DNA of 64,000 nucleotides from Diplonema japonicum. Lineage: Eukaryota; Protista; Euglenozoa: Diplonemea. Position numbers and translations under genes: made by a program. Position 1 is the first letter of the stretch. Every line of letters begins with the position of its first letter. The DNA lies in contig OZ025650.1 of the NCBI GenBank assembly GCA_964019335.1, forward strand, positions 186,001 through 250,000. The letters run 5' to 3'. This document shows positions 4,883 to 41,622 of the stretch, one piece after another. Below the pieces are notes generated by a model that saw only the letters and a list, made by a program, of their open reading frames with translations, was not told the DNA's origin and did not search any database.

Positions 4883-5755
4883 CTATTTAGAGCAAATAAC
4901 AACATGAAGGAATCCATCAGGGTGAGCCATATACTCGGAGAGCCAGATGAGCGGTGTGGCTGGAGAAGGTGTAACACCTTGGATGAGGAGTCGTGCGGAG
5001 GGGAGCGAGATTGGAGATTCAGACTGCGCCTCCTCGTCGGTGAAGGGAAAAATCTCAGGAAGAATCTCCTTGAGGAACTCAGCAAGGGTAGTTGTAGAAT
5101 CGGAGGTCGGATTGGAAGGCGAACGAAGCCAGATAGTCTCGTTGAAATGAACGAAGATCGGGAGCTTTTTCGGTTCAACCTCCGCCCGACGAAGCTGGGT
5201 TCGAACTGTTGCGTACTTCGCATAATTACATTCTCTGACGGCAACGACCAGATCATTCCATTGAGACATTGATAGGTTTGTCACTGCCATTGTACTGTTG
5301 TACCTTAAGGTGTGAGCTTGTTTTAAAATCTGTGAAAACAAGGACATTGTTTCTTTCTCAGTGTTCATTGCCACCATGGATGGGTCAGGGTATGGCGTGA
5401 AGTGCACCGATAAGGACAAAGGCAGCATTTCCTCCGTTTCTTTTCCCTCGGAAAGCTGCAGGTAATCAAACACAACACCCACAGGGAAATGCCACCTTAT
5501 TGGTGTCACTTTCCCCCCCACATCCCTGCTCAGCCATATATCAGATTCTTGGCCGTGTTTTGTGGCCGCGTGTTGCAAGTGTGCTCTTACCTCCGACAGA
5601 AAAAACGATAAATAACCCACTCGAGGGATCAGTTTGTAAAACGCAGTCGGCCGCTCGTATTCCATCCCCGCTAGGCTGTCCGTGCTCAGCGTGAACTGAA
5701 CAGGTACCTTGCCCCTCCATAGGTCCTTCATGAATTCTTCTCCTGCGGCGCTCAT
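4883..5755 (-). CDS. ATG5: Autophagy protein 5
   Basis: LWRGKVPVQF, PRVGYL, PIRWHFPVGVVFD, LKQAHTLR (conjugation-lysine region), LIQGV..TPLIWLSEYMAHPDGFLHVVI. Confidence 0.93.
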   Translation of the reverse strand: MSAAGEEFMKDLWRGKVPVQFTLSTDSLAGMEYERPTAFYKLIPRVGYLSFFLSEVRAHLQHAATKHGQESDIWLSRDVGGKVTPIRWHFPVGVVFDYLQLSEGKETEEMLPLSLSVHFTPYPDPSMVAMNTEKETMSLFSQILKQAHTLRYNSTMAVTNLSMSQWNDLVVAVRECNYAKYATVRTQLRRAEVEPKKLPIFVHFNETIWLRSPSNPTSDSTTTLAEFLKEILPEIFPFTDEEAQSESPISLPSARLLIQGVTPSPATPLIWLSEYMAHPDGFLHVVICSK

Positions 5756-6209: not shown

Positions 6210-6974
6210 TCACTCCAGCTTCACGGTAATGTGTAGAAAATGGTGCGGGTGCTTCATATTTTCGTAAAGCCAAGACAGAGTGCTTTCTGGGGAAGGGACG
6301 ATGCCCTGCACAAGGACACGACCCTCCATTTTGGCTAAGGTGGACAACATGGGAGACTTCAAGCTTGGAATTTTATCATACAAAAACTGTTCAAGATCAA
6401 TCGTGCCATCAGGGTCTGCCTCATGGTACATCGTTTGCACTTTCGGTTTTTTGACATTCACGTAAATAACATGAATTGCGATAGGCAGCTTCTGCATGGC
6501 AACCTCTGGTGTGTCGACATGGTCGAAGACTGTTTTGGCGCTTTCCTTGGCTGCTCTTTTTTTTTTTTCAATTTCTTCCGATCCGGCACTGTACATCCCC
6601 ACAATTGATTTTTCCATAATGTGATACGCAGCTTTTGTCCAGTCGTCAAATGGCTTTGACATCCCATCGCAAGGGATCACATACTGCGCTGTAAGGTCCT
6701 TGTCATATGACTGCTGGACCACCTTGATGATGAGAGCGTTTTTGATCTCCTTCCCTGTTTTAAGCGACCAGATATCTACGTTCACCCCGCAGGGGTACCT
6801 CCAGTTCATCCATACCCCATCGCACCACATGGACACCTGGTCGTCCATCAACAGCCCCAACGCGTCATACGGATCGAGAAAACTCTGCCTCCCCACATGC
6901 TGTTCCACGCTCGCCCCGTTGTACTCATACTTCACACACACCGACCCAGACCACACCAAGCTTTGAAGGTCCAT
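6210..6974 (-). CDS. Divergent ATG5-like paralog
   Basis: VWSGSV, WRYPCGV, KLPIAIHV and VLVQGIVPSPESTLSWLYENMKHPHHFLHITV are colinear with the adjacent ATG5. Confidence 0.8.
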   Translation of the reverse strand: MDLQSLVWSGSVCVKYEYNGASVEQHVGRQSFLDPYDALGLLMDDQVSMWCDGVWMNWRYPCGVNVDIWSLKTGKEIKNALIIKVVQQSYDKDLTAQYVIPCDGMSKPFDDWTKAAYHIMEKSIVGMYSAGSEEIEKKKRAAKESAKTVFDHVDTPEVAMQKLPIAIHVIYVNVKKPKVQTMYHEADPDGTIDLEQFLYDKIPSLKSPMLSTLAKMEGRVLVQGIVPSPESTLSWLYENMKHPHHFLHITVKLE

Positions 6975-12148: not shown

Positions 12149-13619
12149 TCTCCAATTTTCGTTCCTTTCTTTTTTTTTTTTTTTTTTTCTTCCTCTTTTT
12201 CTTTTCCTAAATATTCTGCCTTTTTTTTTTTTTTTTTTTTCCTCTTTTTTTTTTTTTTTTTTTTGCTGTGGGGAGGGTTTTTTTTTGGTTTTATTTGCTC
12301 GAGAACAAAAAAAAAAGGAGGGAAAAAAAGTTTTTTTTTGTTGTTCCCTTCATTTTAACAACACGGGACTTCGAAGGGGCGGGAAGTATTAAAAAAAAGA
12401 GGGGGTAACGAACCTCAAACCTCTTTCTTTTCTTCTTCATTTTCCCTTTTTGTTGGAGGGGGGGGGGGTGCAAAAGGGCTACCGGCCGCAGTTGAAATGG
12501 GGGAAGAGGAGGGGGGAGATACAGTATAGGGGTTTCTTCTTTTTCTTTCGTTCTCAGGCACCTCATCCTTCCCTTTCCTTCTCACCCCTCACGCACTAAG
12601 CACTTGTTGCTTGTACTTCCTTCGCCTTGTGGCTTTTTCTTCCTTCCAATCTTCCTACTAAAGATTCTGTATTTCTTTTTTACCTTTGTTTCCGGTCGAT
12701 TTTCTGGTTTGCAATGGCATTCTTTTGTTTTCTTATTTTTTAAAAAAAATAAAATAAAAAAAACACACAAAGATATATAAAAAAAGACCATTATTATTTT
12801 TTCGGTAATAACCTAAACAACATTATGGAGGGCCATGCATTCTTTCTTTTCTTTTTTAAAAAAAAAAAAGGATTTTTCCTATTTCCCGTTCAGAGTACTT
12901 CTTTTACTACCTGGGGGAAAAAAAAAATCAAGGGGTAGAGAGACTAAGGGAATGGGTGGGGTGATTGTGGAATGGGTGGAGTAAAAAAAAAAAACTCAAA
13001 GTACAGGACAAGCCCCCCGCTAGAGGGCCGCCCTATGGGAGGGGGGGGTCTATCTGTTAATAAAAAATAAATAAAATAAAAAAAAAAAAGAGGGTGCAAA
13101 AAAAAATCATCAGTTTTTGCAAGAAAAACAAAAGGGATACAATAAAAAAAAAAAGGCTTTCTTTTTTCTTCTTTTTTTTTCCGGACACTGTAAAAAAAAA
13201 AAAAAAAAAAGGAGGGGAAACAAGGGGATCACTACTAAACTTATTTTTTTTTCTTTTTTTTTTTTTACGCTCCATATTCGCTAAGTGACCCGCCCAATGT
13301 CCCAAAGGGGTTATAGGGGGCTATAGGGGAAAAAATGTCAAAAATGCCCAAAGGTTCATTGAATTTTTTTTTCCAAAAATTCCATATGTCGAACATGAAA
13401 GAACGGTGAGTTCCAAGGAAGTTCCAAAAAAAATTTTCCAAAAAAAAAAATATTGGGGGCCAACCAAAATGACCTTGGAAGTCGCCATTTTGGGTTTTGG
13501 CCATTTTTGCCAAACTTTTGCAACTGGGCACTTTTCCCTTTGAAAAACATGGTTAACAGGGTTCGATCCCAGAAGCCAGCATCTTCCTGACCAGTAGTTC
13601 AGCCGAAAATATTTTCGAA

Positions 13620-13698
13620 GGTGTAGTAGTCTAGTTGGGGGGGCTTTGCCCTGTACCTAGGCGAAGCGGGTTCAAGCCCCACTCCAGCGGATTTTTTT
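13620..13698 (+). ncRNA. tRNA-like Pol III cassette (degenerate), left end of the TIR element
   Basis: A box TAGTCTAGTTGG, anticodon-like stem TTTGCC/GGCGAA, B box GGTTCAAGCCC, T7 terminator; mismatched acceptor stem. Confidence 0.55.
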
Positions 13699-13893
13699 AG
13701 GCCCCCCACAGGGGAGAAACGGCAACCTGAACCGGTGTTTCCGCAAAAGCTTTTCGTAAGCTTGTGGGAGTCTAGTTGAAGAAAAGTGCAGTTTTGAGGG
13801 AAGGACAGCTCTTAACATTGTAAGATTGTTAGTTGTTAGTCAGTAAGCATAACAGTCCTGTCCTCTGCACTTCGGCCGTAATCACCAAATACA

Positions 13894-14900
13894 AATGGGT
13901 GGAGATGACGAGAAGGTCAAAGAGGGTTCCATAAGGGAGTTTATAGTTGAAGAGACAGATGCGCGTCTACGCCGTCCACCACAGGGCAACGTACAGTCCA
14001 AATGGAATGGCATAGTCATTTGAAAGTGACGTTGCCTTTGGGGCAGAAGTTATTTCTGCTTGGAAGGTACTTATGTGGGAATTACACCGATCACCGGTCA
14101 CGTTTGCGTTGGAAGATCCTTGACCCGCGTGCCCTGGTTTGATGACCAGCCTGAACGGAACGGAGACTATGAAACAAGCAGTGACGACGACCGGAGAATA
14201 CTTCCTACTCCTGAGAGCACACGGGCAACTCGAAGGGAAAGACCAAAGCAAGCCCTTCCAGCCAGCAGAGAGCCTCAGACAACGAGGACTCCAGATGGAC
14301 AGGATCGCGATAGCGGAGTACAGCCACAAGGAGCTCCACTACCGGGTCCACTACACAAAAGAGGGCAAGAAGTGAGATCTCAGAGCAGACGGAGTGGAAG
14401 TGCCATAAGCAGGCAAAAACAAAGGATGGCACCCCAGCCTCATCTTGTACAAGAAGCACAAGACCGAGGAAGCAGGGGAGGGCCACCCGAGGAACAACAG
14501 AGGACATGGATAACCTCCCCAACGCAGCAGCAACAACAGTAACAGCAGCAACAGCAGTAGCAGCAAAGACAGTAGCGACAACAGAAAGTAAAGAAGAAGA
14601 CATCAGTATCTCCTCCCCCTTCCTCCTCCTTCTCCCCTTCCTGCTGTTCTACTTCGGGTGGATCAAGCGTCTGAAGAAACAACAGATTTGACCCCTACTC
14701 TTCAGTGTACTAGAAACGTACACGACGCACCCCTGGAACAGATAACGGAAGGAAACGCTATGCACACCACCTGAGTGGTAGCTCAGGAAGCTGAAGTAGT
14801 ACGACGGACCGAGGAAGACGACAGTCACCACAATAACTCGTACTAGACTTCGAAAACTGGGAAAGGGGTAGATAAGTAGAGATAAGTAGACAAGGACGTT
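13894..14900 (+). pseudogene. Decayed coding-like interior of the TIR element, product unknown
   Basis: Coding-like composition with in-frame stops, e.g. ..HYRVHYTKEGKK*DLRADGVEVP*AGKNKG. Confidence 0.35.
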
Positions 14901-15078
14901 CCAGAACAGGAACCTCCTTTAGCTCATCTCTTATTCTGTGTTTATTTCATCACAGTGTTGATGGGCTGAGGCACGTCGTGAGTGTGTATCGCAAGGATAT
15001 CTGGTGTGAAAAGAAGGGAACCTACTCCACCCACTATGCCGGATGCGTGAGTAAAGATGGGGGGTCAGAGTTTTGAAT

Positions 15079-15167
15079 TCCTGTGTGGTAGAGTGGTTAC
15101 CGTGCTCACCTGTCAGGCCCCCTTGTTCCAGGAGTCGCGGGTTCGAATCCCGACGCAGTGGTTTTTT
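15079..15167 (+). ncRNA. tRNA-Asp(GTC)-like Pol III cassette (degenerate), right end of the TIR element
   Basis: TCCTGTG TGGTAGAGTGG (A box), CT-GTC-A loop, GGTTCGAATCC (B box), CGCAG acceptor complement, T6 terminator; anticodon stem disrupted. Confidence 0.65.
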
Positions 15168-15470
15168 CATCAGGGTTCGAACCCCACTTGTGCCGTGTTT
15201 TTTCCACCGGAGCTGCTTCATTTTGTATAGTACAAAGTAAGGCAAATCACCAAAAAAAATTTTATTACAAAAAAAAATTCCATATGTCGAACATTGGGCC
15301 CCGGACGCAAATAAATCCATTCCAACCCTAGAAAAAGCAATTAGAAATTTTTTTAGCTCTTCAAAATGCGGTTTCTGGTGGGTCACTTAGCGAATATGGA
15401 GCGTTATAAATCGGATTTCTTTTTTTTTTTTTTTCTTCTTTACTCCATGGCAACCACAGTACTCCTACGC

Positions 15471-31658: not shown

Positions 31659-32246
31659 TTCATAGTTTTCTTTTCTTCTTCTTTTTTTAGGATTCTTTTT
31701 TAATTTACTTTTTTTTCTTCTTCTTCTTCCCGTTGAAACAAGGATTAACAAAAAAATAAAATAAAAAAGGGAAAAGAGAGGAGTGGAACCATAAAGTGGG
31801 TAGAAGGTGAAGAAGGGGCTTTAAAATAAATAAAATAAGGAATAACACTCAAACAAAAAAAAAAGGGGGGTGAAAATAAAAAAAAGAAAAGCGGCTTTAT
31901 TTATTTTTTTTTTAAATTTCTTTTTTCCTTTTTTTTTTTTACGTTTGCCTCAGTTCTGCGCAGTCCTATTTGGTTTGCCTTCATGCTTCGGTGCGATTAG
32001 GATAGAAAGTTAAAAAAGTAAAATGAATTCCGGAAGCTTCCAGGCATTGCCCGTCTAAGGAACTTCGCCTTTGCACAAAAAAAAAAAAAAAAAATGAGAA
32101 TAAAAATAAAGTAAAATAGAAACCCTTTTGCGTTACGTTAGCCAAATAAAATTCCAATAAAAAAAAAAAAGAGATGAAAAAGTCAAAGATACCATAATTA
32201 AAGAAGTGAACTGGGATTATAAAAAGGGGGAAAAGAAGAAGCAGGT

Positions 32247-32291
32247 ATCACGTGTATTAGGGAGGTAACTAAGGTCAAGTGGCGCAACTTT
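32247..32291 (-). promoter_or_regulatory. Conserved 45-nt block 3' of MVP copy 1
   Basis: Identical to 38636-38680 although the flanks diverge. Confidence 0.55.
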
Positions 32292-32376
32292 TGCACACTT
32301 TTTTTTTTTTTCTCTTTTTTTTTTCGACTCCTTTTCCTTGTTCTTTCTGTACTAAATGTCAAGTAACACCTGATAC

Positions 32377-35081
32377 TTACTGCTGCCCAGGAAGGCCACC
32401 AATCATGCCACCTGCAGTGTTGAAGAGGTTGATGGGGGAGTTCCCGTCCGTAATGAGGTACCTGTTTGGTGTTTTGTATTCAATAGAATTTCCGTGTTAA
32501 AAATCTAGACATACCCCTTCAGGTTCAGCCCCTCGAGGAGCTTTGCCTGCATCTCCGGCCCTGCCCTGGCCATGGCGAGCACGGTCTCGGGCCCGATCGC
32601 GTCCATTGTGTCTGCGAACTTCTTCGCCTCGATCTCGCTGAGCTTCTTCGTCTTCTCCACCTCAAGGTTGTTCAGCCTGTGCTGGTACTCCAGAGTCGCC
32701 TTGTGCTTCGACTTCATCATCTCCATCTCAGCGTCAGCACTGATTCTCTGAGCGTCTGCCTTCAGCTGTGCCTGCTGGAGCTCGCTGTTGGCCTCGATGA
32801 GCATCGCCTCCGCCCTTGCCTCTGCCTCAGCCTTCGCCTGCCCAGTGGCCTCGATGGCCTCACTCTCGGCTTGCAGCTTCAGGTACTCCTTCTTCTGCTT
32901 CTCGGACTCTTGGGCATCCTGTTTTTTTTGTTTTGTTTTGTTTTGTTTTGTTTTGTTCTGTTCACACCCTCAGCTTGCGTCTTTCAAGCTCACTGCCAGC
33001 CTTCTGGGCATCCCTCTCAGCCATGTGCCTCGCCGTAGCCTCCTGGGACTTTGTGGTGATCTCGATGGCGAGCTGCACAGACTTCTGCAGAGAGTCCCTC
33101 GTCTTCTGGTCCACAGGCTCCACAGACTGGATGTCGACGTTCGTGATGGCCAAGTTGTTGGCGACAAACCTGAACTCGTCACGGATCTTCTTGTTCTCGT
33201 TGAATCCGAAGACGGCTCCCCTGATGATCTTGGCGGAGTTCCTGTGGAAGGAGTCGAAGGATTCCATTGCAATCTGCCCACGGATCCTCCCGGCCATCGC
33301 CTTGCAGGCGTCACCCACGAAGTCGGGAACCGAGAACACCTTCTTGCACTCGTCAGCGTCGCTCTTGTCGAGGGCGAACCTCCAGTTGTAGGAGAGGCGC
33401 AGCTCCAGCCTTGCATGGTCGCTCGTCTCCACCGTGATCAGGTCAGTCATGAAGGCGGGCCCGAGGTGCAGCTGCAGCGACCCGATCACGTGCGGGCGCT
33501 TTGGCTTGTCACCGCTGAGGGACAGCACGGTGAAGCTCTCGTCCGGCTGCAGCATCACGAGGTCGGGACCGAACACAATACGCGGCTCCTTTCCAGCGTA
33601 GTCGTAGATCTGGACAGCAGCGTTGTGTGAGATGTTGAACCTCACAGCCTTCGTCTTGTCCCTCGGCACCATCGTCCGTGCCTGGTCCTTCACGTTGTGC
33701 TTCATCCCCTTCGGGCACTGCAGAAGTTCCTCAACCACTGGAGGAAGTTCCTTCTCCCAAAGTACCTCGTCCTCCGCAAGCATGCACGCCTTCCCGGTCA
33801 CCATCGTCACCTTCCCCGTGGTCTCGTTCCTGATGTACACACCCTCGTTGTCGTCAAGAGGGATTGCCCTGCGCTTGTCAATCACCTCCACCTCCGTCGG
33901 GGGGATGTACTCCAAAGGCCCCCTCAGCATCCACTTCTCACCAGGAACCCTCGCCGTCCCGTTGTCTTTGAAGGCCTCCAGTGCCTTCACCAAGATCGCC
34001 TCGTCTGCCCCCAGGATCTCGATGTCGTGAACACAGTCGTCGGCAAGCCTCTCACCGGGGTGCAGGAAGAACGAGGTTCCTTCACCCTCCCCTCGTCGGA
34101 TCTCCCTGTGCCCGAATCGCTGCACTCCATCTGTGATGGGGTCGATCACAACGCAGTACTGCCTGTTCGAGAGGGTGGTGATGTTCACGGTCCTGATCAC
34201 CTTCTCATCCACCTTTTGTTTTTTTTAGTATTGTTATTATTTATCTTGCTGTTGTGTGATCATACCTCAGGGATGAAGGCGGAGGTGTCGTGCAGCGTCA
34301 CAAGCCACCTCTCCCCAGCGCACCTCTTCTTCTTGAAGATGTCAGTGTGGGTCGTGATAGCCTCCACCTCAACAGCCTTCCTGTCCGTCAGAACCTTCGC
34401 CTCCACAGTCCCAACCACTTCCTCCTCCACAGCAGGCATGTACGCCCCGTCTTCCCTGATCAGCCACTCCTCCCCTCCCTTCCTCTCATTCCCGGACTCG
34501 TCCGTGAAGTCCACCTTCGCTCGGATCCTCAAGGCCTCATTCGGCTTCACAACCTTTGCACCCACCTTCGCCACGAAAGCCACCTTCTCGCTGGGAATGT
34601 AGGTCCTGGGACCGAGGAAGAGCCACTCGTCGCCAGCCTTCCTCTCCACCCCGGTATCCGCGTCAGTGAAGTCCCTCTCGGCCTTCAGGCGCAGGGCAGT
34701 GTTCTTTGGTACGACGGTCAGCTTCTTGATGGGTTGTTCTCCCTTCACATCCTTCCCGACAAGCACCTCACCAGGGTACAGGGGGAACGGCATCGTCCAC
34801 TGCTTCCCGTCGTTCACCCTCACCTCCTCGTCCCCGAAGCGAACAGACGCCTGCCCGTGCTCATCGGGGAGGGCCGTCCCGTCCGCATCCCGCTTGATCG
34901 GGTTCTTCACCCTGCAGAAGCACTGCGGCGGGAGGGCGATGAACTTCTCAGGTCCAGCCACCACCCTCTCGTGGTCCCTCTTCGTGAAGGTGTCCGGTCC
35001 CAGCACCGCTGTGATCAGGTTCGCATTGTTGTCAAGCACATGGATGTACTCATCCCTCTTCAGTCGGATTACTTCACCCAT
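32377..35081 (-). CDS. MVP: Major vault protein, copy 1; three introns
   Basis: YIHVLDNN, PFPLYPGE, AGDEWLFLGP, LSLSGDKPK, VETSDHARL, SVPDFVGDACK, QKSVQLAIEITTKSQE, AGPEMQAKLL, LITDGNSPINLFNTA. Confidence 0.97.
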
Positions 35082-35451
35082 CTTTTTCTGCTGTGTATTC
35101 TTGGCCCTGTGTGGTTTTTGTTTCTGTTTTTTTTAAAAGGCCCAGGTTACCGGAAGATGCCATATCCGACGGCACTACAATTCCGCGGGCCATCCTGTCC
35201 TCTCTGGTTGATGGTGGCCACCCGATGCATTGCAGTTTCTGCGCATGGCCATCGCCCGGCTGGATTGGGACTCACCCCCAACAACGACATTCTTGTTAGG
35301 AAAGCACATCGAACAGCCTTCGTTGGAACTTTTTTTTTCCGGGTTTGTCAGAAAGCTTCCAAGAAAGCCCGACTTAAAAATGCTCTCATGCACAATGGGA
35401 ATCACCACGCGCCTCAAATCTCTAGCACACGCTTGTGCTCAACACTGAATA

Positions 35452-37722
35452 CTGTAAAACGAATAATGTCGGACGGAAAAATTCCCGGACACCAAAAAAA
35501 CCCGGACATTTTTCCGTCCGGGAGTTTTTCTGGGGAAAAGTCTTTTTTACGGAAGGGGGGTGGCAGCTCCTGCTTTTTTTCCCATACCACCATGTTTGCC
35601 TGGAAGGGCTTAGCAGACTCGTATGCAGAGCCAAAATGTTTACCCTGCGTGGCAGTTTGAATTTTTTTTCCCTCCCTTTCAATGCACCAACAAACAGCAC
35701 CCACAGGATTCTTAACTTTCTTCAATCTCATAAACCCGTACTTCTTTCGTCAAATGACCAGTTCGACTACCCAAGGCACGTTGAGCAACTGGCTTGTGGG
35801 GCGCCCAACTTTGGTTGCTGACACCTCCGACCAGCTCACCCCCCGAGAGGTGGAGGAGATAAACTCCCTACACCGGGCCAAGAAGGCCAGAACAAACCCC
35901 CGAAAGCAGCTCCAGCTCCCGAAGGATACTAAAGCCCTTATTGGGCGATACGCTGCTACCCACGGCGTCGCGGCGGCCAGGTCGTGGTATCGCACGAAAG
36001 AGGGGGTGGAACTAGCAACGTCCAGTATTTCCGACTGGAAAAAAAACTTTGGGGGCTCTGTTGGGCCTGTTGCTGCCCCCTTTACCGTCGGTCGCAAACC
36101 TCTTCTGGCCGAGGCAGAGACTGCCAAGGTTTTTGCTTGGGTCGATAGGCAAAACGAACTTGGCGAGCCTATCTCAGCGCAACAAATATGCACCTATGCA
36201 GAAGGGCTGCTGCGCGCTAATCCAGCCCGAAAGACAGAGCTGGTAGACTTTGGTGGGACACTGTCCTTTTCCACCAGCTGGGCTGACAAGCTTTGCAGCA
36301 GGAAAGGCTACAAAAGCCGCAGGCCCACCACCGGAAACCTGGAAACGAGAAGGACAAAGAGAGGGCACGCTGTTTCGCCATGCAATTCAGGTCTATAATC
36401 GACACCCATAAAGTAAGGCCTGAATTGGTCTGGAATACGGACCAAACCTCCCTGCAGCTGTTGCCGTTGGGGTTAAAAACCAAAACGAAAAGGGGTGCAA
36501 AGGTCGTAAAAGTCCGTGGCTTGGGGGACAAACGGGCCATAACTGGACAGCTGGCTGTCTCCCTGGCTGGGGATAAGTTGCATCCGCAACTTATATACAA
36601 AGGCAGAACGGAACCTGCAGCCGACAGGGTTTATCCAGGGTCCGTGCCCCGGGTCAAGCACCCGCCCACCGAATGGAGCCTAACGGCATCGCCCAGTCAT
36701 TGGGCTAATTATGATACACTCAGTATCTGGGTCAAAAAGCTGTTTCTTCCTTTTTGCAGTAAAACCATCGATTCTCATGGTTTTGCCCCGAACGAGTCGA
36801 TTCTGCTGCTTCTCGATAACTACAACTGTCATTCGACCGATGAGTTTTTGGAGTTGTTCGAAGGCACAAACGTGCACATTGCTTTTGTCCCCCCTGGGCT
36901 CACCTACATGGTTCAACCGATGGATATTGCGCTGTCTCCGGCCAGTCGATCAGGAACAGCTGGGCTTCCTGTTTTGGCCACTACCTGGAACCCGGATGGA
37001 GCCCTATTTGGGAGTTTTCGGTACTTGCTGCATACGCCGGTGTTGCGTGTGTGCTGGCTGTTGGAAAAACATGGGAGGAAGAGTGGGAAGAGGACTGGGG
37101 CTGGGAGGAGGTCTGGGAAGAGGAGGAAGACGAGTACTCCCTATATGCCAGGCTTGCCCAGGACATGGAGCATGGACGTGTGGAAGTCATCGGCGTAGAT
37201 GCATCTTCCGACACGACCACCGTGTCCGCCGCCTCGACGATAACCGAAGAAACCTTTTCCGTTTCTTCAGACTCGTCAGTGGAGATGCTCCCCAGTCTCA
37301 CCCAGCAACGGCTAGATGACGCTGCCGCCAGGAGAGCCGCCAAGAAGGCAACAGCTAAGCCTGCAAGAATGAAGGCAGCAGCTAAGCCCGCAGGCAAGAA
37401 GGCAGCGGCCAAACCCGGAGGCAAGGTAGCACAGTAGATAGCCCTACCCCTCCATTTTTTTCTTTTCTTTTTGCCTTTTATCAATCAGTTTTATCTTGAG
37501 CTTTATGCCCACACGGTATCTTCTTCCAGGGATAATGCGGACACGAAACACATGACCCAGATACCCAGTGGTTCGGTGGCGGTTTCTTCGCGCGGTTGCC
37601 GTTTGCAGGCCAGTATGTAGGTAGTGGACCACGACCTTACAAAAAAAACTCCCGGACGGAAAAACTCCCGGACACCAAAAAAACTCGGACATTTTTCCGT
37701 CCGGGAGTTTTTCGTTTTACAG
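35452..37722 (+). mobile_element. pogo/Tigger-like (Tc1/mariner superfamily) transposon with disrupted transposase
   Basis: TA|CTGTAAAACGAA...TTCGTTTTACAG|TA. CENP-B-type HTH (FSTSWADKL) and DDE_1 motifs WNTDQT, LLLLDNYNCH, VQPMD, split across frames. Confidence 0.9.
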
Positions 37723-38586: not shown

Positions 38587-38635
38587 AAATAAAATAAAAA
38601 GGGGAAGGGGAAGGGTTAAAATAAATAAAACAGAC

Positions 38636-38680
38636 ATCACGTGTATTAGGGAGGTAACTAAGGTCAAGTGGCGCAACTTT
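38636..38680 (-). promoter_or_regulatory. Conserved 45-nt block 3' of MVP copy 2
   Basis: Identical to 32247-32291. Confidence 0.55.
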
Positions 38681-38801
38681 CTTCTCTTCTTACTATTATC
38701 TCTGTTTCTTGTTCTTTCTTTTTTTTTTTTCCCTTGCACTTTATTGTGTCGTCTTCTTTTTTTGATTCGCTTTTTTTCTGGTATCTCTTCTTCTCTTCTG
38801 C

Positions 38802-41506
38802 TTACTGCTGCCCAGGAAGGCCACCAATCATGCCACCTGCAGTGTTGAAGAGGTTGATGGGGGAGTTCCCGTCCGTAATGAGGTACCTGTTTGGTGTTTT
38901 GTATTCAATAGAATTTCCGTGTTAAAAATCTAGACATACCCCTTCAGGTTCAGCCCCTCGAGGAGCTTTGCCTGCATCTCCGGCCCTGCCCTGGCCATGG
39001 CGAGCACGGTCTCGGGCCCGATCGCGTCCATTGTGTCTGCGAACTTCTTCGCCTCGATCTCGCTGAGCTTCTTCGTCTTCTCCACCTCAAGGTTGTTCAG
39101 CCTGTGCTGGTACTCCAGAGTCGCCTTGTGCTTCGACTTCATCATCTCCATCTCAGCGTCAGCACTGATTCTCTGAGCGTCTGCCTTCAGCTGTGCCTGC
39201 TGGAGCTCGCTGTTGGCCTCGATGAGCATCGCCTCCGCCCTTGCCTCTGCCTCAGCCTTCGCCTGCCCAGTGGCCTCGATGGCCTCACTCTCGGCTTGCA
39301 GCTTCAGGTACTCCTTCTTCTGCTTCTCGGACTCTTGGGCATCCTGTTTTTTTTGTTTTGTTTTGTTTTGTTTTGTTTTGTTCTGTTCACACCCTCAGCT
39401 TGCGTCTTTCAAGCTCACTGCCAGCCTTCTGGGCATCCCTCTCAGCCATGTGCCTCGCCGTAGCCTCCTGGGACTTTGTGGTGATCTCGATGGCGAGCTG
39501 CACAGACTTCTGCAGAGAGTCCCTCGTCTTCTGGTCCACAGGCTCCACAGACTGGATGTCGACGTTCGTGATGGCCAAGTTGTTGGCGACAAACCTGAAC
39601 TCGTCACGGATCTTCTTGTTCTCGTTGAATCCGAAGACGGCTCCCCTGATGATCTTGGCGGAGTTCCTGTGGAAGGAGTCGAAGGATTCCATTGCAATCT
39701 GCCCACGGATCCTCCCGGCCATCGCCTTGCAGGCGTCACCCACGAAGTCGGGAACCGAGAACACCTTCTTGCACTCGTCAGCGTCGCTCTTGTCGAGGGC
39801 GAACCTCCAGTTGTAGGAGAGGCGCAGCTCCAGCCTTGCATGGTCGCTCGTCTCCACCGTGATCAGGTCAGTCATGAAGGCGGGCCCGAGGTGCAGCTGC
39901 AGCGACCCGATCACGTGCGGGCGCTTTGGCTTGTCACCGCTGAGGGACAGCACGGTGAAGCTCTCGTCCGGCTGCAGCATCACGAGGTCGGGACCGAACA
40001 CAATACGCGGCTCCTTTCCAGCGTAGTCGTAGATCTGGACAGCAGCGTTGTGTGAGATGTTGAACCTCACAGCCTTCGTCTTGTCCCTCGGCACCATCGT
40101 CCGTGCCTGGTCCTTCACGTTGTGCTTCATCCCCTTCGGGCACTGCAGAAGTTCCTCAACCACTGGAGGAAGTTCCTTCTCCCAAAGTACCTCGTCCTCC
40201 GCAAGCATGCACGCCTTCCCGGTCACCATCGTCACCTTCCCCGTGGTCTCGTTCCTGATGTACACACCCTCGTTGTCGTCAAGAGGGATTGCCCTGCGCT
40301 TGTCAATCACCTCCACCTCCGTCGGGGGGATGTACTCCAAAGGCCCCCTCAGCATCCACTTCTCACCAGGAACCCTCGCCGTCCCGTTGTCTTTGAAGGC
40401 CTCCAGTGCCTTCACCAAGATCGCCTCGTCTGCCCCCAGGATCTCGATGTCGTGAACACAGTCGTCGGCAAGCCTCTCACCGGGGTGCAGGAAGAACGAG
40501 GTTCCTTCACCCTCCCCTCGTCGGATCTCCCTGTGCCCGAATCGCTGCACTCCATCTGTGATGGGGTCGATCACAACGCAGTACTGCCTGTTCGAGAGGG
40601 TGGTGATGTTCACGGTCCTGATCACCTTCTCATCCACCTTTTGTTTTTTTTAGTATTGTTATTATTTATCTTGCTGTTGTGTGATCATACCTCAGGGATG
40701 AAGGCGGAGGTGTCGTGCAGCGTCACAAGCCACCTCTCCCCAGCGCACCTCTTCTTCTTGAAGATGTCAGTGTGGGTCGTGATAGCCTCCACCTCAACAG
40801 CCTTCCTGTCCGTCAGAACCTTCGCCTCCACAGTCCCAACCACTTCCTCCTCCACAGCAGGCATGTACGCCCCGTCTTCCCTGATCAGCCACTCCTCCCC
40901 TCCCTTCCTCTCATTCCCGGACTCGTCCGTGAAGTCCACCTTCGCTCGGATCCTCAAGGCCTCATTCGGCTTCACAACCTTTGCACCCACCTTCGCCACG
41001 AAAGCCACCTTCTCGCTGGGAATGTAGGTCCTGGGACCGAGGAAGAGCCACTCGTCGCCAGCCTTCCTCTCCACCCCGGTATCCGCGTCAGTGAAGTCCC
41101 TCTCGGCCTTCAGGCGCAGGGCAGTGTTCTTTGGTACGACGGTCAGCTTCTTGATGGGTTGTTCTCCCTTCACATCCTTCCCGACAAGCACCTCACCAGG
41201 GTACAGGGGGAACGGCATCGTCCACTGCTTCCCGTCGTTCACCCTCACCTCCTCGTCCCCGAAGCGAACAGACGCCTGCCCGTGCTCATCGGGGAGGGCC
41301 GTCCCGTCCGCATCCCGCTTGATCGGGTTCTTCACCCTGCAGAAGCACTGCGGCGGGAGGGCGATGAACTTCTCAGGTCCAGCCACCACCCTCTCGTGGT
41401 CCCTCTTCGTGAAGGTGTCCGGTCCCAGCACCGCTGTGATCAGGTTCGCATTGTTGTCAAGCACATGGATGTACTCATCCCTCTTCAGTCGGATTACTTC
41501 ACCCAT
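38802..41506 (-). CDS. MVP: Major vault protein, copy 2
   Basis: Same sequence and ORF translations as copy 1, offset 6425 bp. Confidence 0.97.
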
Positions 41507-41622
41507 CTTTTTCTGCTGTGTATTCTTGGCCCTGTGTGGTTTGTATAGTCCTTTGAAATTTTGTTCAGTTTTAATTCTAAACTGCCCGATAAAAATAGGC
41601 ACTGCGATGAACACCTACACTG

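What the first reader, a model, noticed from the sequence alone, without database searches (positions are those of the whole stretch)
13268..15403. DNA transposon bracketed by tRNA-like Pol III cassettes and extra B boxes
Seen: inside perfect 24-bp TIRs with TTA duplication, the left end has a solo B box (CAGGGTTCGATCCC, 13557-13570) then a tRNA-like unit with terminator (13620-13698). The right end has a related tRNA-Asp-like unit (15079-15167) then a solo B box (CAGGGTTCGAACCC, 15171-15184). All are on the plus strand, antisense to the host cluster, in a mirror-ordered layout around a decayed plus-strand ORF. Established: tRNA genes and B boxes bind TFIIIC and act as barriers, and trypanosomatid tRNA-like boxes serve as promoters for neighbouring small RNAs. 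Inference: a transposon family carrying its own Pol III/TFIIIC insulators or promoters to shield or express cargo within polycistronic transcription. Best candidate here for an undescribed system.
Basis: partly seen in the sequence, partly recalled or inferred. Interest (0 to 1): 0.8.

Follow-up and report, generated by a model that had tools for sequence, protein, structure and literature searches.

The report
Diplonemid transposon carrying tRNA-like promoters
A repeated transposon with inverted ends, in a flagellate that is likely a Diplonema, carries two worn tRNA-like promoter units inside its ends that other copies share; these likely dock the tRNA-transcription machinery there, though no activity has been shown and copies lacking them also exist.

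Summary
A 2,136-bp element (13268-15403) has perfect 24-bp inverted ends between TTA triplets. It holds all 4 plus-strand B boxes of the 64-kb window and two A-box/B-box/T-run units; shuffles gave any such unit in 1 of 5,000. The units are not tRNA genes (ARAGORN, Rfam negative). Public contigs show a highly repeated family with many internal-deletion derivatives. The right unit is kept 2.6-8 times more often than the DNA just inside it and varies little (p 0.01-0.06, confounded). But copies lacking both units exist, down to about 100-bp minis, so the units are not needed for spreading. The interior is decayed coding DNA with no identifiable transposase; a TTA target fits PIF/Harbinger, membership unproven. 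Insulator or cargo-promoter function is untested. This scan has noted similar tRNA-like modules in DNA transposons of other genomes (unreviewed notes); my ten paper searches found no description. Verdict: a new variant of a known kind, moderately interesting.

The parts
13265..13267 (.). Left TTA, probable target-site duplication
   Evidence: Sequence. Other copies have TTA and CAA before the left end (loose ends in X3 and X7). No empty site was seen.
13268..13291 (+). Left terminal inverted repeat, 24 bp
   Evidence: Perfect match to 15380-15403; other flanks attached to this end in X2, X12, X3, X7.
13375..13396 (+). 22-nt subterminal direct repeat, copy 1 (likely a transposase-binding or end-pairing motif; inferred)
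   Evidence: Identical to 15273-15294 (family D14).
13557..13570 (+). Left solo B box
   Evidence: A B-box-like version is kept in a diverged copy that differs at 28 places and 12 gaps over 200 nt (tables 5c and 8).
13620..13698 (+). Left tRNA-like Pol III unit: A box 13627-13638, B box 13669-13680, T7 terminator
   Evidence: Most depth in X1, X2 and X12 has A at 13676, closer to the B-box consensus than this copy. No cloverleaf.
13763..13778 (+). Partial second copy of the left unit's start (81% to 13622-13637), without a B box
   Evidence: family D18.
14145..14590 (+). Decayed coding region (phase 13770+3k), protein not identified
   Evidence: GC3 0.67-0.71 in this phase, like host genes 0.53-0.79. 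Three of its stops are sense codons in other copies (14375, 14408, 14511). No true hit in Pfam, PDB, the Atlas or protein collections.
14609..14642 (+). Polypyrimidine tract between two coding remnants, likely a trans-splicing/polyadenylation signal of the ancestral element (inferred)
   Evidence: Only such tract on the plus strand of the element.
14710..14857 (+). Second coding remnant, frameshifted here; elsewhere it continues on both sides into other coding-like sequence
   Evidence: Loose ends before 14710 and behind 14857 in X2 and X12, insertions at 14734, 14759, 14834 in other copies; no protein hit.
14870..14931 (.). Imperfect hairpin; may be a separate, more abundant small repeat
   Evidence: Minus strand 14860-14985 folds at z -3.2, best of 6 stretches tried; bin 14840-14936 has its own depth peak in X1 and X2.
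15079..15167 (+). Right tRNA-Asp-like Pol III unit: A box 15086-15096, Asp-type loop 15110-15115, B box 15140-15151, T6 terminator
   Evidence: 3 variable places in 15079-15190, none in the boxes; depth 2.6-8.2 times that of 14940-15011 in 4 of 4 runs. No cloverleaf.
15171..15203 (+). Right extra B box (15171-15184) followed by its own T6 (15198-15203); resembles a duplicated 3' half of a unit
   Evidence: Aligns with the 3' halves of both units above 1,000 of 1,000 shuffles, largely through the box itself.
15273..15294 (+). 22-nt subterminal direct repeat, copy 2
15380..15403 (-). Right terminal inverted repeat, 24 bp
   Evidence: no variable place listed in it.
15404..15406 (.). Right TTA, probable target-site duplication
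   Evidence: Sequence.

Best explanation
This is one internally decayed copy of a highly repeated family with terminal inverted repeats, likely a non-autonomous cut-and-paste transposon, whose members share two tRNA-like promoter units (A box, B box, T-run) and two extra B boxes near their ends; the units likely still bind TFIIIC and so would keep the end regions open. Shown: the ends, the boxes, the loss of the cloverleaf, sharing of both units by other copies, extra retention of the right unit, and copies without units. Inferred: an ancestral element captured or duplicated tRNA sequence once; the paired B boxes give a strong TFIIIC site within about 200-400 bp of each end; Pol III makes short unstable 80-90-nt RNAs; the nucleosome-poor patch helps a transposase supplied from elsewhere reach the ends and may have let the ancestral element be transcribed whichever way it landed in the host's one-way gene clusters. 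The units would be a helper, not a requirement.
For: Boxes far beyond chance. Contigs bridge end sequence and unit on both sides (X11 records 10 and 16, X12 record 19, X1 record 7). No flanking duplication. Right unit: depth 3.8, 5.3, 2.6 and 8.2 times the inner flank in X1, X2, X3, X7; 6 of 13 large deletions end at 14994-15063, just before it, and 0 of 13 inside it (p 0.05 or 0.002 by the null range chosen); 3 variable places of 112 against 35 of 328 elsewhere in the laid part of the element outside the TIR (p 0.010), none in a box. Left unit: majority allele at 13676 is nearer the consensus. Precedent: L. major tRNA-like units keep boxes A and B, do not fold as cloverleaves, are transcribed, and an extra B box adds to activity (PMC4950102, passages); Pol III genes in trypanosomatids lie in open chromatin (PMC5814962, passages).
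Against: No binding, transcription or chromatin data. Derivatives without either unit exist (3 of 13) and minis of about 100-115 bp. In X2 the right unit has only 6% of the depth of the end. Conservation is weak once confounders are counted: against the upstream 139 nt alone p is 0.06, the next 68 nt are as quiet (2 places), and diverged sister families inflate the subterminal count. Two smaller deletions do cut the right unit (14991>15116, 15110>15146) and one contig joins the left unit to 15082; these were left out of the 13. The left unit shows no clear depth step. The joints are the best-supported rows only (24 plus 12 rows not shown), and contig depth is not a copy number. No transposase was found, so cut-and-paste is inferred from the ends.
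Confidence: 0.5

Rival explanations
1. Passengers: an ancestral element picked up tRNA sequence once, Pack-MULE style, and the units ride along without benefit. They survive because short copies lose the middle and keep whatever lies near the ends.
For: Unit-less derivatives and minis spread; X2 depth rises smoothly toward the end; cloverleaves are lost; the interior also holds captured-looking coding fragments; low variation extends beyond the boxes.
Against: Four B boxes, two A boxes and three terminators are intact while the stems and the ORFs have decayed; no listed substitution hits a box of the right unit; large deletions cluster just outside the right unit.
Confidence: 0.3
2. Divergent promoter, as for trypanosomatid snRNAs: the right unit drives a small minus-strand RNA starting about 104 nt upstream of box A (near 14982) and ending at the T-run near 14864, and the left unit a shorter one from near 13523.
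For: The 104-nt geometry and help from an extra B box are established for L. major U2 (PMC4950102); minus strand 14860-14985 folds at z -3.2.
Against: Best of 6 stretches folded, chosen after the fact; Rfam finds no snRNA there; most copies with the right unit have lost that stretch; the hairpin bin has its own depth peak, as a separate repeat would; the left counterpart is unremarkable (z -1.5).
Confidence: 0.08
3. Independent SINE or tRNA-pseudogene insertions into an ordinary MITE-like element.
For: Both units have SINE-head anatomy; in X7 the right unit has 3.4 times the depth of the end.
Against: No flanking duplication over 6 nt and no tail beyond the terminator; none of the loose ends shown (24 of 124 rows) puts foreign DNA at a unit's edge, and the depth step is explained by joints to the element's own left arm; near-identical units in contigs from other runs.
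Confidence: 0.07
4. Insulator or terminator: the paired units shield the interior from host minus-strand read-through.
For: Pol III gene clusters are linked with Pol II termination at trypanosomatid strand switches (PMC5814962); one unit lies at each end.
Against: The element lies within a one-strand cluster with intact genes downstream; the units are not inverted relative to each other; most copies have little or nothing between the units to shield.
Confidence: 0.05

Closest known systems
PIF/Harbinger group of PHIS DNA transposons and their MITE derivatives (PMC4482050; passages and section 5 read)
   Same: Short TIR (under 60 bp), 3-bp TTA on both sides, nested internal-deletion derivatives, remnants compatible with two ORFs.
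   Different: TIR starts with C (usually A or G); one other copy has CAA at its left end; no DDE transposase or Myb/SANT protein recognised; the passages read mention no tRNA-like units.
Cassandra TRIM retrotransposons (10.1101/2023.07.14.548913; abstract and outline read)
   Same: A non-autonomous element that carries a host Pol III internal promoter in its terminal regions as a family feature.
   Different: Cassandra is an LTR retroelement that needs an RNA copy and uses the 5S promoter; this element has inverted ends, tRNA-type boxes, and no evident need for an RNA intermediate.
tRNA-like promoter units of trypanosomatid snRNA genes (PMC4950102; passages read)
   Same: Boxes A and B kept, cloverleaf lost, 80-110-nt unit ending in a T-run, extra B box nearby, euglenozoan host.
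   Different: Those are single-copy host promoters for a divergent snRNA; here they lie in a mobile repeat and no known snRNA is adjacent.
tRNA-derived SINEs (defining features as stated in PMC3845634, passages; tail and TSD from my own knowledge)
   Same: tRNA-related sequence with an internal Pol III promoter, present in many copies.
   Different: No own target duplication or tail; spread inside TIR-bounded elements.
DNA transposons reported for Diplonema papillatum: MULE, Helitron (PMC10161547; passages read)
   Same: Repeat-rich diplonemid genome with one-way gene clusters.
   Different: The passages name no TIR family with 3-bp targets and say a rigorous transposon survey is still to be done; the supplement with the repeat section could not be read.

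Membership tests
Class II TIR transposon (non-autonomous) | Terminal inverted repeats with many copies at different sites | tested here: met
   24-bp perfect TIR; ends at roughly 1,000-4,000 times unique-flank contig depth in X1 and X2 (not a copy number); different flanks on the same end.
Class II TIR transposon (non-autonomous) | Target duplication confirmed by an empty site | tested here: inconclusive
   TTA on both sides here; no joint across the whole element was listed, and the flanks were masked as repeats.
PIF/Harbinger (PHIS) | TWA target-site duplication | tested here: inconclusive
   TTA/TTA in this copy; of 2 other left flanks shown, 1 TTA and 1 CAA.
PIF/Harbinger (PHIS) | TIR under 60 bp, first base usually A or G | tested here: inconclusive
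   24 bp fits; first base C does not fit the usual rule. Diverged sister ends may begin with G (loose ends behind 15387).
PIF/Harbinger (PHIS) | DDE transposase ORF plus Myb/SANT ORF in the autonomous element | tested here: inconclusive
   Only decayed remnants; no Pfam, PDB or database hit. No autonomous copy could be fetched.
Ginger DNA transposons | 4-5-bp target duplication (PMC4482050) | tested here: not met
   3-bp TTA; no longer duplication.
tRNA gene | Cloverleaf recognised by ARAGORN or the Rfam tRNA model | tested here: not met
Type 2 (tRNA-type) Pol III promoter unit | A box, B box 35-100 nt downstream, T-run of 4 or more after it | tested here: met
   Both units, spacing 42 and 54 nt; consensus patterns recalled, and similar to the boxes printed in PMC4950102.
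Type 2 (tRNA-type) Pol III promoter unit | TFIIIC binding and Pol III transcription | not testable with these tools
   Only contigs of unrecorded library type were available.
tRNA-derived SINE | Own target-site duplication and 3' tail | tested here: not met
   Longest flanking repeat 5-6 nt, chance-level or T-run; no tail.
tRNA-derived SINE | Dispersed copies independent of the host element | tested here: inconclusive
   No foreign loose end at a unit edge among rows shown (24 of 124; 24 of 378); X7 depth peaks over the right unit.
Trypanosomatid tRNA-like promoter of a divergent snRNA | snRNA gene starting about 104 nt upstream of box A on the other strand | tested here: inconclusive
   No Rfam snRNA; an unassigned hairpin lies there for the right unit.
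Cassandra TRIM | LTRs containing 5S rRNA promoter sequence | tested here: not met
   Inverted, not direct, ends; no 5S match in Rfam.
Fanzor/TnpB-carrying transposon | RuvC nuclease ORF and structured guide RNA at the right end | tested here: inconclusive
   No nuclease hit in the remnants; right-end stretches fold no better than shuffles (z about -1.0); autonomous copy not seen.

The most novel reading that the evidence does not exclude
DNA transposons of microbial eukaryotes have repeatedly domesticated tRNA-mimic promoters as a working part: doubled B boxes at each end recruit TFIIIC, hold the ends open for transposase and free the element from the host's one-way transcription. In this diplonemid the mimics are good enough to be recognised as tRNA genes by other machinery: four deletion joints fall 16-25 nt upstream of the right unit, one with a (TTA)n-like filler, where the genome's tRNA-homing LINEs are reported (unreviewed scan notes) to strike.
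Probability: 0.3. Interest if true: 0.75.

Novelty: new variant of a known kind. Interest (0 to 1): 0.48.

Why it matters
Cut-and-paste elements need no RNA copy of themselves, so a kept Pol III promoter inside one asks for another explanation. If the units are selected, they show a way for a transposon to make its own open chromatin with host TFIIIC, the DNA-transposon counterpart of Cassandra's 5S promoter, in a lineage whose trypanosomatid relatives lack DNA transposons (PMC12278014, passages). The family has hundreds of natural variants with two, one or no units, so the question can be tested directly with the assembly and one ChIP experiment. If the units are passengers, it is a well-marked but ordinary MITE family.

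Tried and rejected
No whole genome is held for this window, so copies could not be aligned. The TIR has 0 exact matches in metagenome and viral contigs. The ORF remnant found nothing real: Pfam, PDB sequences, word-indexed protein search, Atlas on the 76-residue stop-free part, metagenome contigs. The single HMMER hit P0010 is a bacterial protein with four LamG repeats whose summed weak matches explain the score; the single viral hit L001 lies antisense to a long phage gene. Both rejected. Single-sequence folds were poor (pLDDT 60 and 45); Foldseek best E 0.7, VIA best Z 4.5: uninformative. Resemblances I noticed by eye to a chromo-barrel, Gypsy RNase H, GPY/F and DIRS-type reverse transcriptase motifs are recalled, were not supported by any search and are not used. 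No RNA holder was listed, and the library type of the runs laid is not on record, so nothing is claimed on expression. Rfam over the region gave only low-complexity matches. The one other B-box match in the window (18301, minus) lies in coding-like sequence next to the P-type ATPase ORF and is rejected. Papers: ten searches returned no description of tRNA-like promoters inside DNA transposons or of Harbinger-like elements in diplonemids; the library lacks most subscription journals and Repbase reports. The repeat section of the D. papillatum paper (Additional file 1) was too large to read; the 7 readable files do not hold the TIR.
Full report
What was checked. The element runs from 13268 to 15403. 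Its 24-bp ends are perfect inverted repeats with TTA outside each, and a 22-nt direct repeat sits about 110 nt inside each end. With recalled A-box and B-box patterns, all 4 plus-strand B boxes of the 64-kb window lie in the element, and so do all 3 A+B+T-run combinations; of 5,000 dinucleotide shuffles of the element none had 4 B boxes on a strand, 1 had one unit and none had two. The patterns were written after seeing the sequence, so the figures are somewhat generous. The units are not tRNA genes: ARAGORN finds none, Rfam lists no tRNA and neither folds better than shuffles. The right unit keeps an Asp-type loop; that resemblance rests on the GTC triplet and recalled tRNA anatomy, as no tRNA gene of the host was available. 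The right extra B box has its own T6 and looks like a duplicated 3' half.

Host. The ORFs with Pfam hits all lie on the minus strand. Six of 10 host proteins looked up are in EukProt, and the nearest named relative of Tfb2 is from Diplonema ambulator at 50% identity. Earlier scan notes also call this genome Diplonema. The species was not determined. D. papillatum has co-transcribed gene clusters and a repeat-rich genome without a rigorous transposon survey (PMC10161547, passages).

Is it a family, and do other copies carry the units? Contig depth is not a copy number, but unique flank depth is 450 in X1 and 95 in X2, while the right end reaches about 1,080 and 3,900 times that and the right unit about 580 and 220 times. 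The ends join several different flanks. Single contigs span end region, solo B box and most of the left unit (13364-13674 in X11, 13365-13675 in X12, 4 differences each) and the whole right unit with its extra box and end region (14963-15371 in X11); a diverged copy covers 15006-15223. No repeat over 6 nt flanks either unit, and no loose end shown places foreign DNA at a unit's edge (24 of 378 and 24 of 124 rows shown).

Are they fixed? No. From I took the 13 large deletions shown (10 of 15 rows in table 5, 3 from table 5c; 5 small ones dropped; 24 and 12 rows not shown). Six keep the right unit, 7 the left, 3 both and 3 neither. Minis of about 100-115 bp join the left TIR directly to the right subterminal block. 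The units are thus not needed for a copy to exist at a new site.

Are they kept by selection? The evidence is suggestive only. The right unit has 2.6-8.2 times the depth of the DNA just inside it in 4 of 4 runs; 6 of 13 right breakpoints fall in the 90 nt before it and none inside (p 0.05 or 0.002 depending on the null range). It has 3 variable places in 112 nt, none in a box, against 35 in 328 nt elsewhere (p 0.010), or 12 in the 139 nt upstream (p 0.06). For the left unit the majority base at 13676 improves the B box relative to this copy, and a diverged copy keeps a version of the solo box. Against this: the 68 nt after the right extra box are as quiet, sister families inflate variation near the end, two small deletions cut the right unit, X2 shows only 6% of end depth over it, and the left unit shows no clear step.

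Interior. Phase 13770+3k is coding-like from about 14145 to 14590 (GC3 0.67-0.71), and three of its stops are sense codons in other copies. A polypyrimidine tract at 14609-14642 separates it from a second, frameshifted remnant (14710-14857) that continues into other coding-like sequence elsewhere. This would fit an internally deleted two-ORF ancestor using trans-splicing signals (inference). No search identified either protein, so the superfamily is open. TTA and a short TIR fit PIF/Harbinger; the initial C and one CAA flank fit less well (PMC4482050, passages and section 5).

Mechanism. In L. major, tRNA-like units with boxes A and B and no cloverleaf are transcribed and drive a divergent snRNA, aided by a further B box (PMC4950102, passages). 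Pol III genes there are nucleosome-poor and associated with Pol II boundaries (PMC5814962, passages). B-box-dependent Pol III complexes also guide retrotransposons in Dictyostelium (PMC5006619, passages). I therefore think it most likely (0.5) that the units still bind TFIIIC and open the chromatin near the ends, as an optional aid to transposition and, in the ancestor, to transcription. Passenger relics (0.3), a divergent small RNA (0.08), SINE insertions (0.07) and an insulator (0.05) are the rivals. Every functional step is inferred.

Comparison and novelty. The closest analogue in print that I saw is Cassandra, a retroelement carrying the 5S promoter (bioRxiv 10.1101/2023.07.14.548913, abstract and outline). 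Ten paper searches found no account of tRNA-like promoters within DNA transposons (listings only, plus passages of PMC3845634 and PMC12278014); subscription journals, Repbase reports and the D. papillatum repeat supplement were out of reach. This scan has noted similar modules in TIR transposons of other genomes, four notes leaning to function and one to passengers; these are unreviewed and are not counted as support, though they supplied the Cassandra and PHIS papers as leads.

Verdict. Real feature; first reading partly supported; a new variant of a known kind. Interest 0.48; 0.75 if the units prove to be selected, working parts (probability 0.3 for the strong form).

Noticed in passing
window 12983-13036: A separate small repeat of about 55 nt just left of the element, with the highest depth of the laid stretch (about 1.08 million in X1 against 450 in unique DNA) and many different flanks; single in this window.
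   Followed up: partly
window 14840-14936: Depth peak in X1 and X2 over an imperfect hairpin; may be a small repeat of its own inside the element.
   Followed up: partly
window 15275-15387: Diverged sister families share this subterminal block but end differently (loose ends behind 15342, 15357, 15387), and minis join the left TIR straight to 15304 or 15323.
   Followed up: partly
window 15054-15063: Four deletion joints end 16-25 nt before the right unit (three, one); one carries a 17-nt (TTA)n-like filler.
   Followed up: partly
window 32224-35117 and 38611-41542: A 2.9-kb duplication at 97.5% identity containing major-vault-protein coding sequence.
   Followed up: no
window 4883-5755 and 6210-6974: Two neighbouring ATG5-family ORFs.
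   Followed up: no
window 35470-35530 and 37653-37713: A 61-nt repeat at 97% identity.
   Followed up: no
runs X11 and X12: Runs filed under other organisms hold near-identical pieces of the element but almost none of its unique flank; low-level DNA of the same flagellate is the simplest reading, transfer not tested.
   Followed up: no
runs X1 and X2: Two runs of one study differ about tenfold in the ratio of interior to end depth; library type or contig-depth capping may explain it.
   Followed up: no
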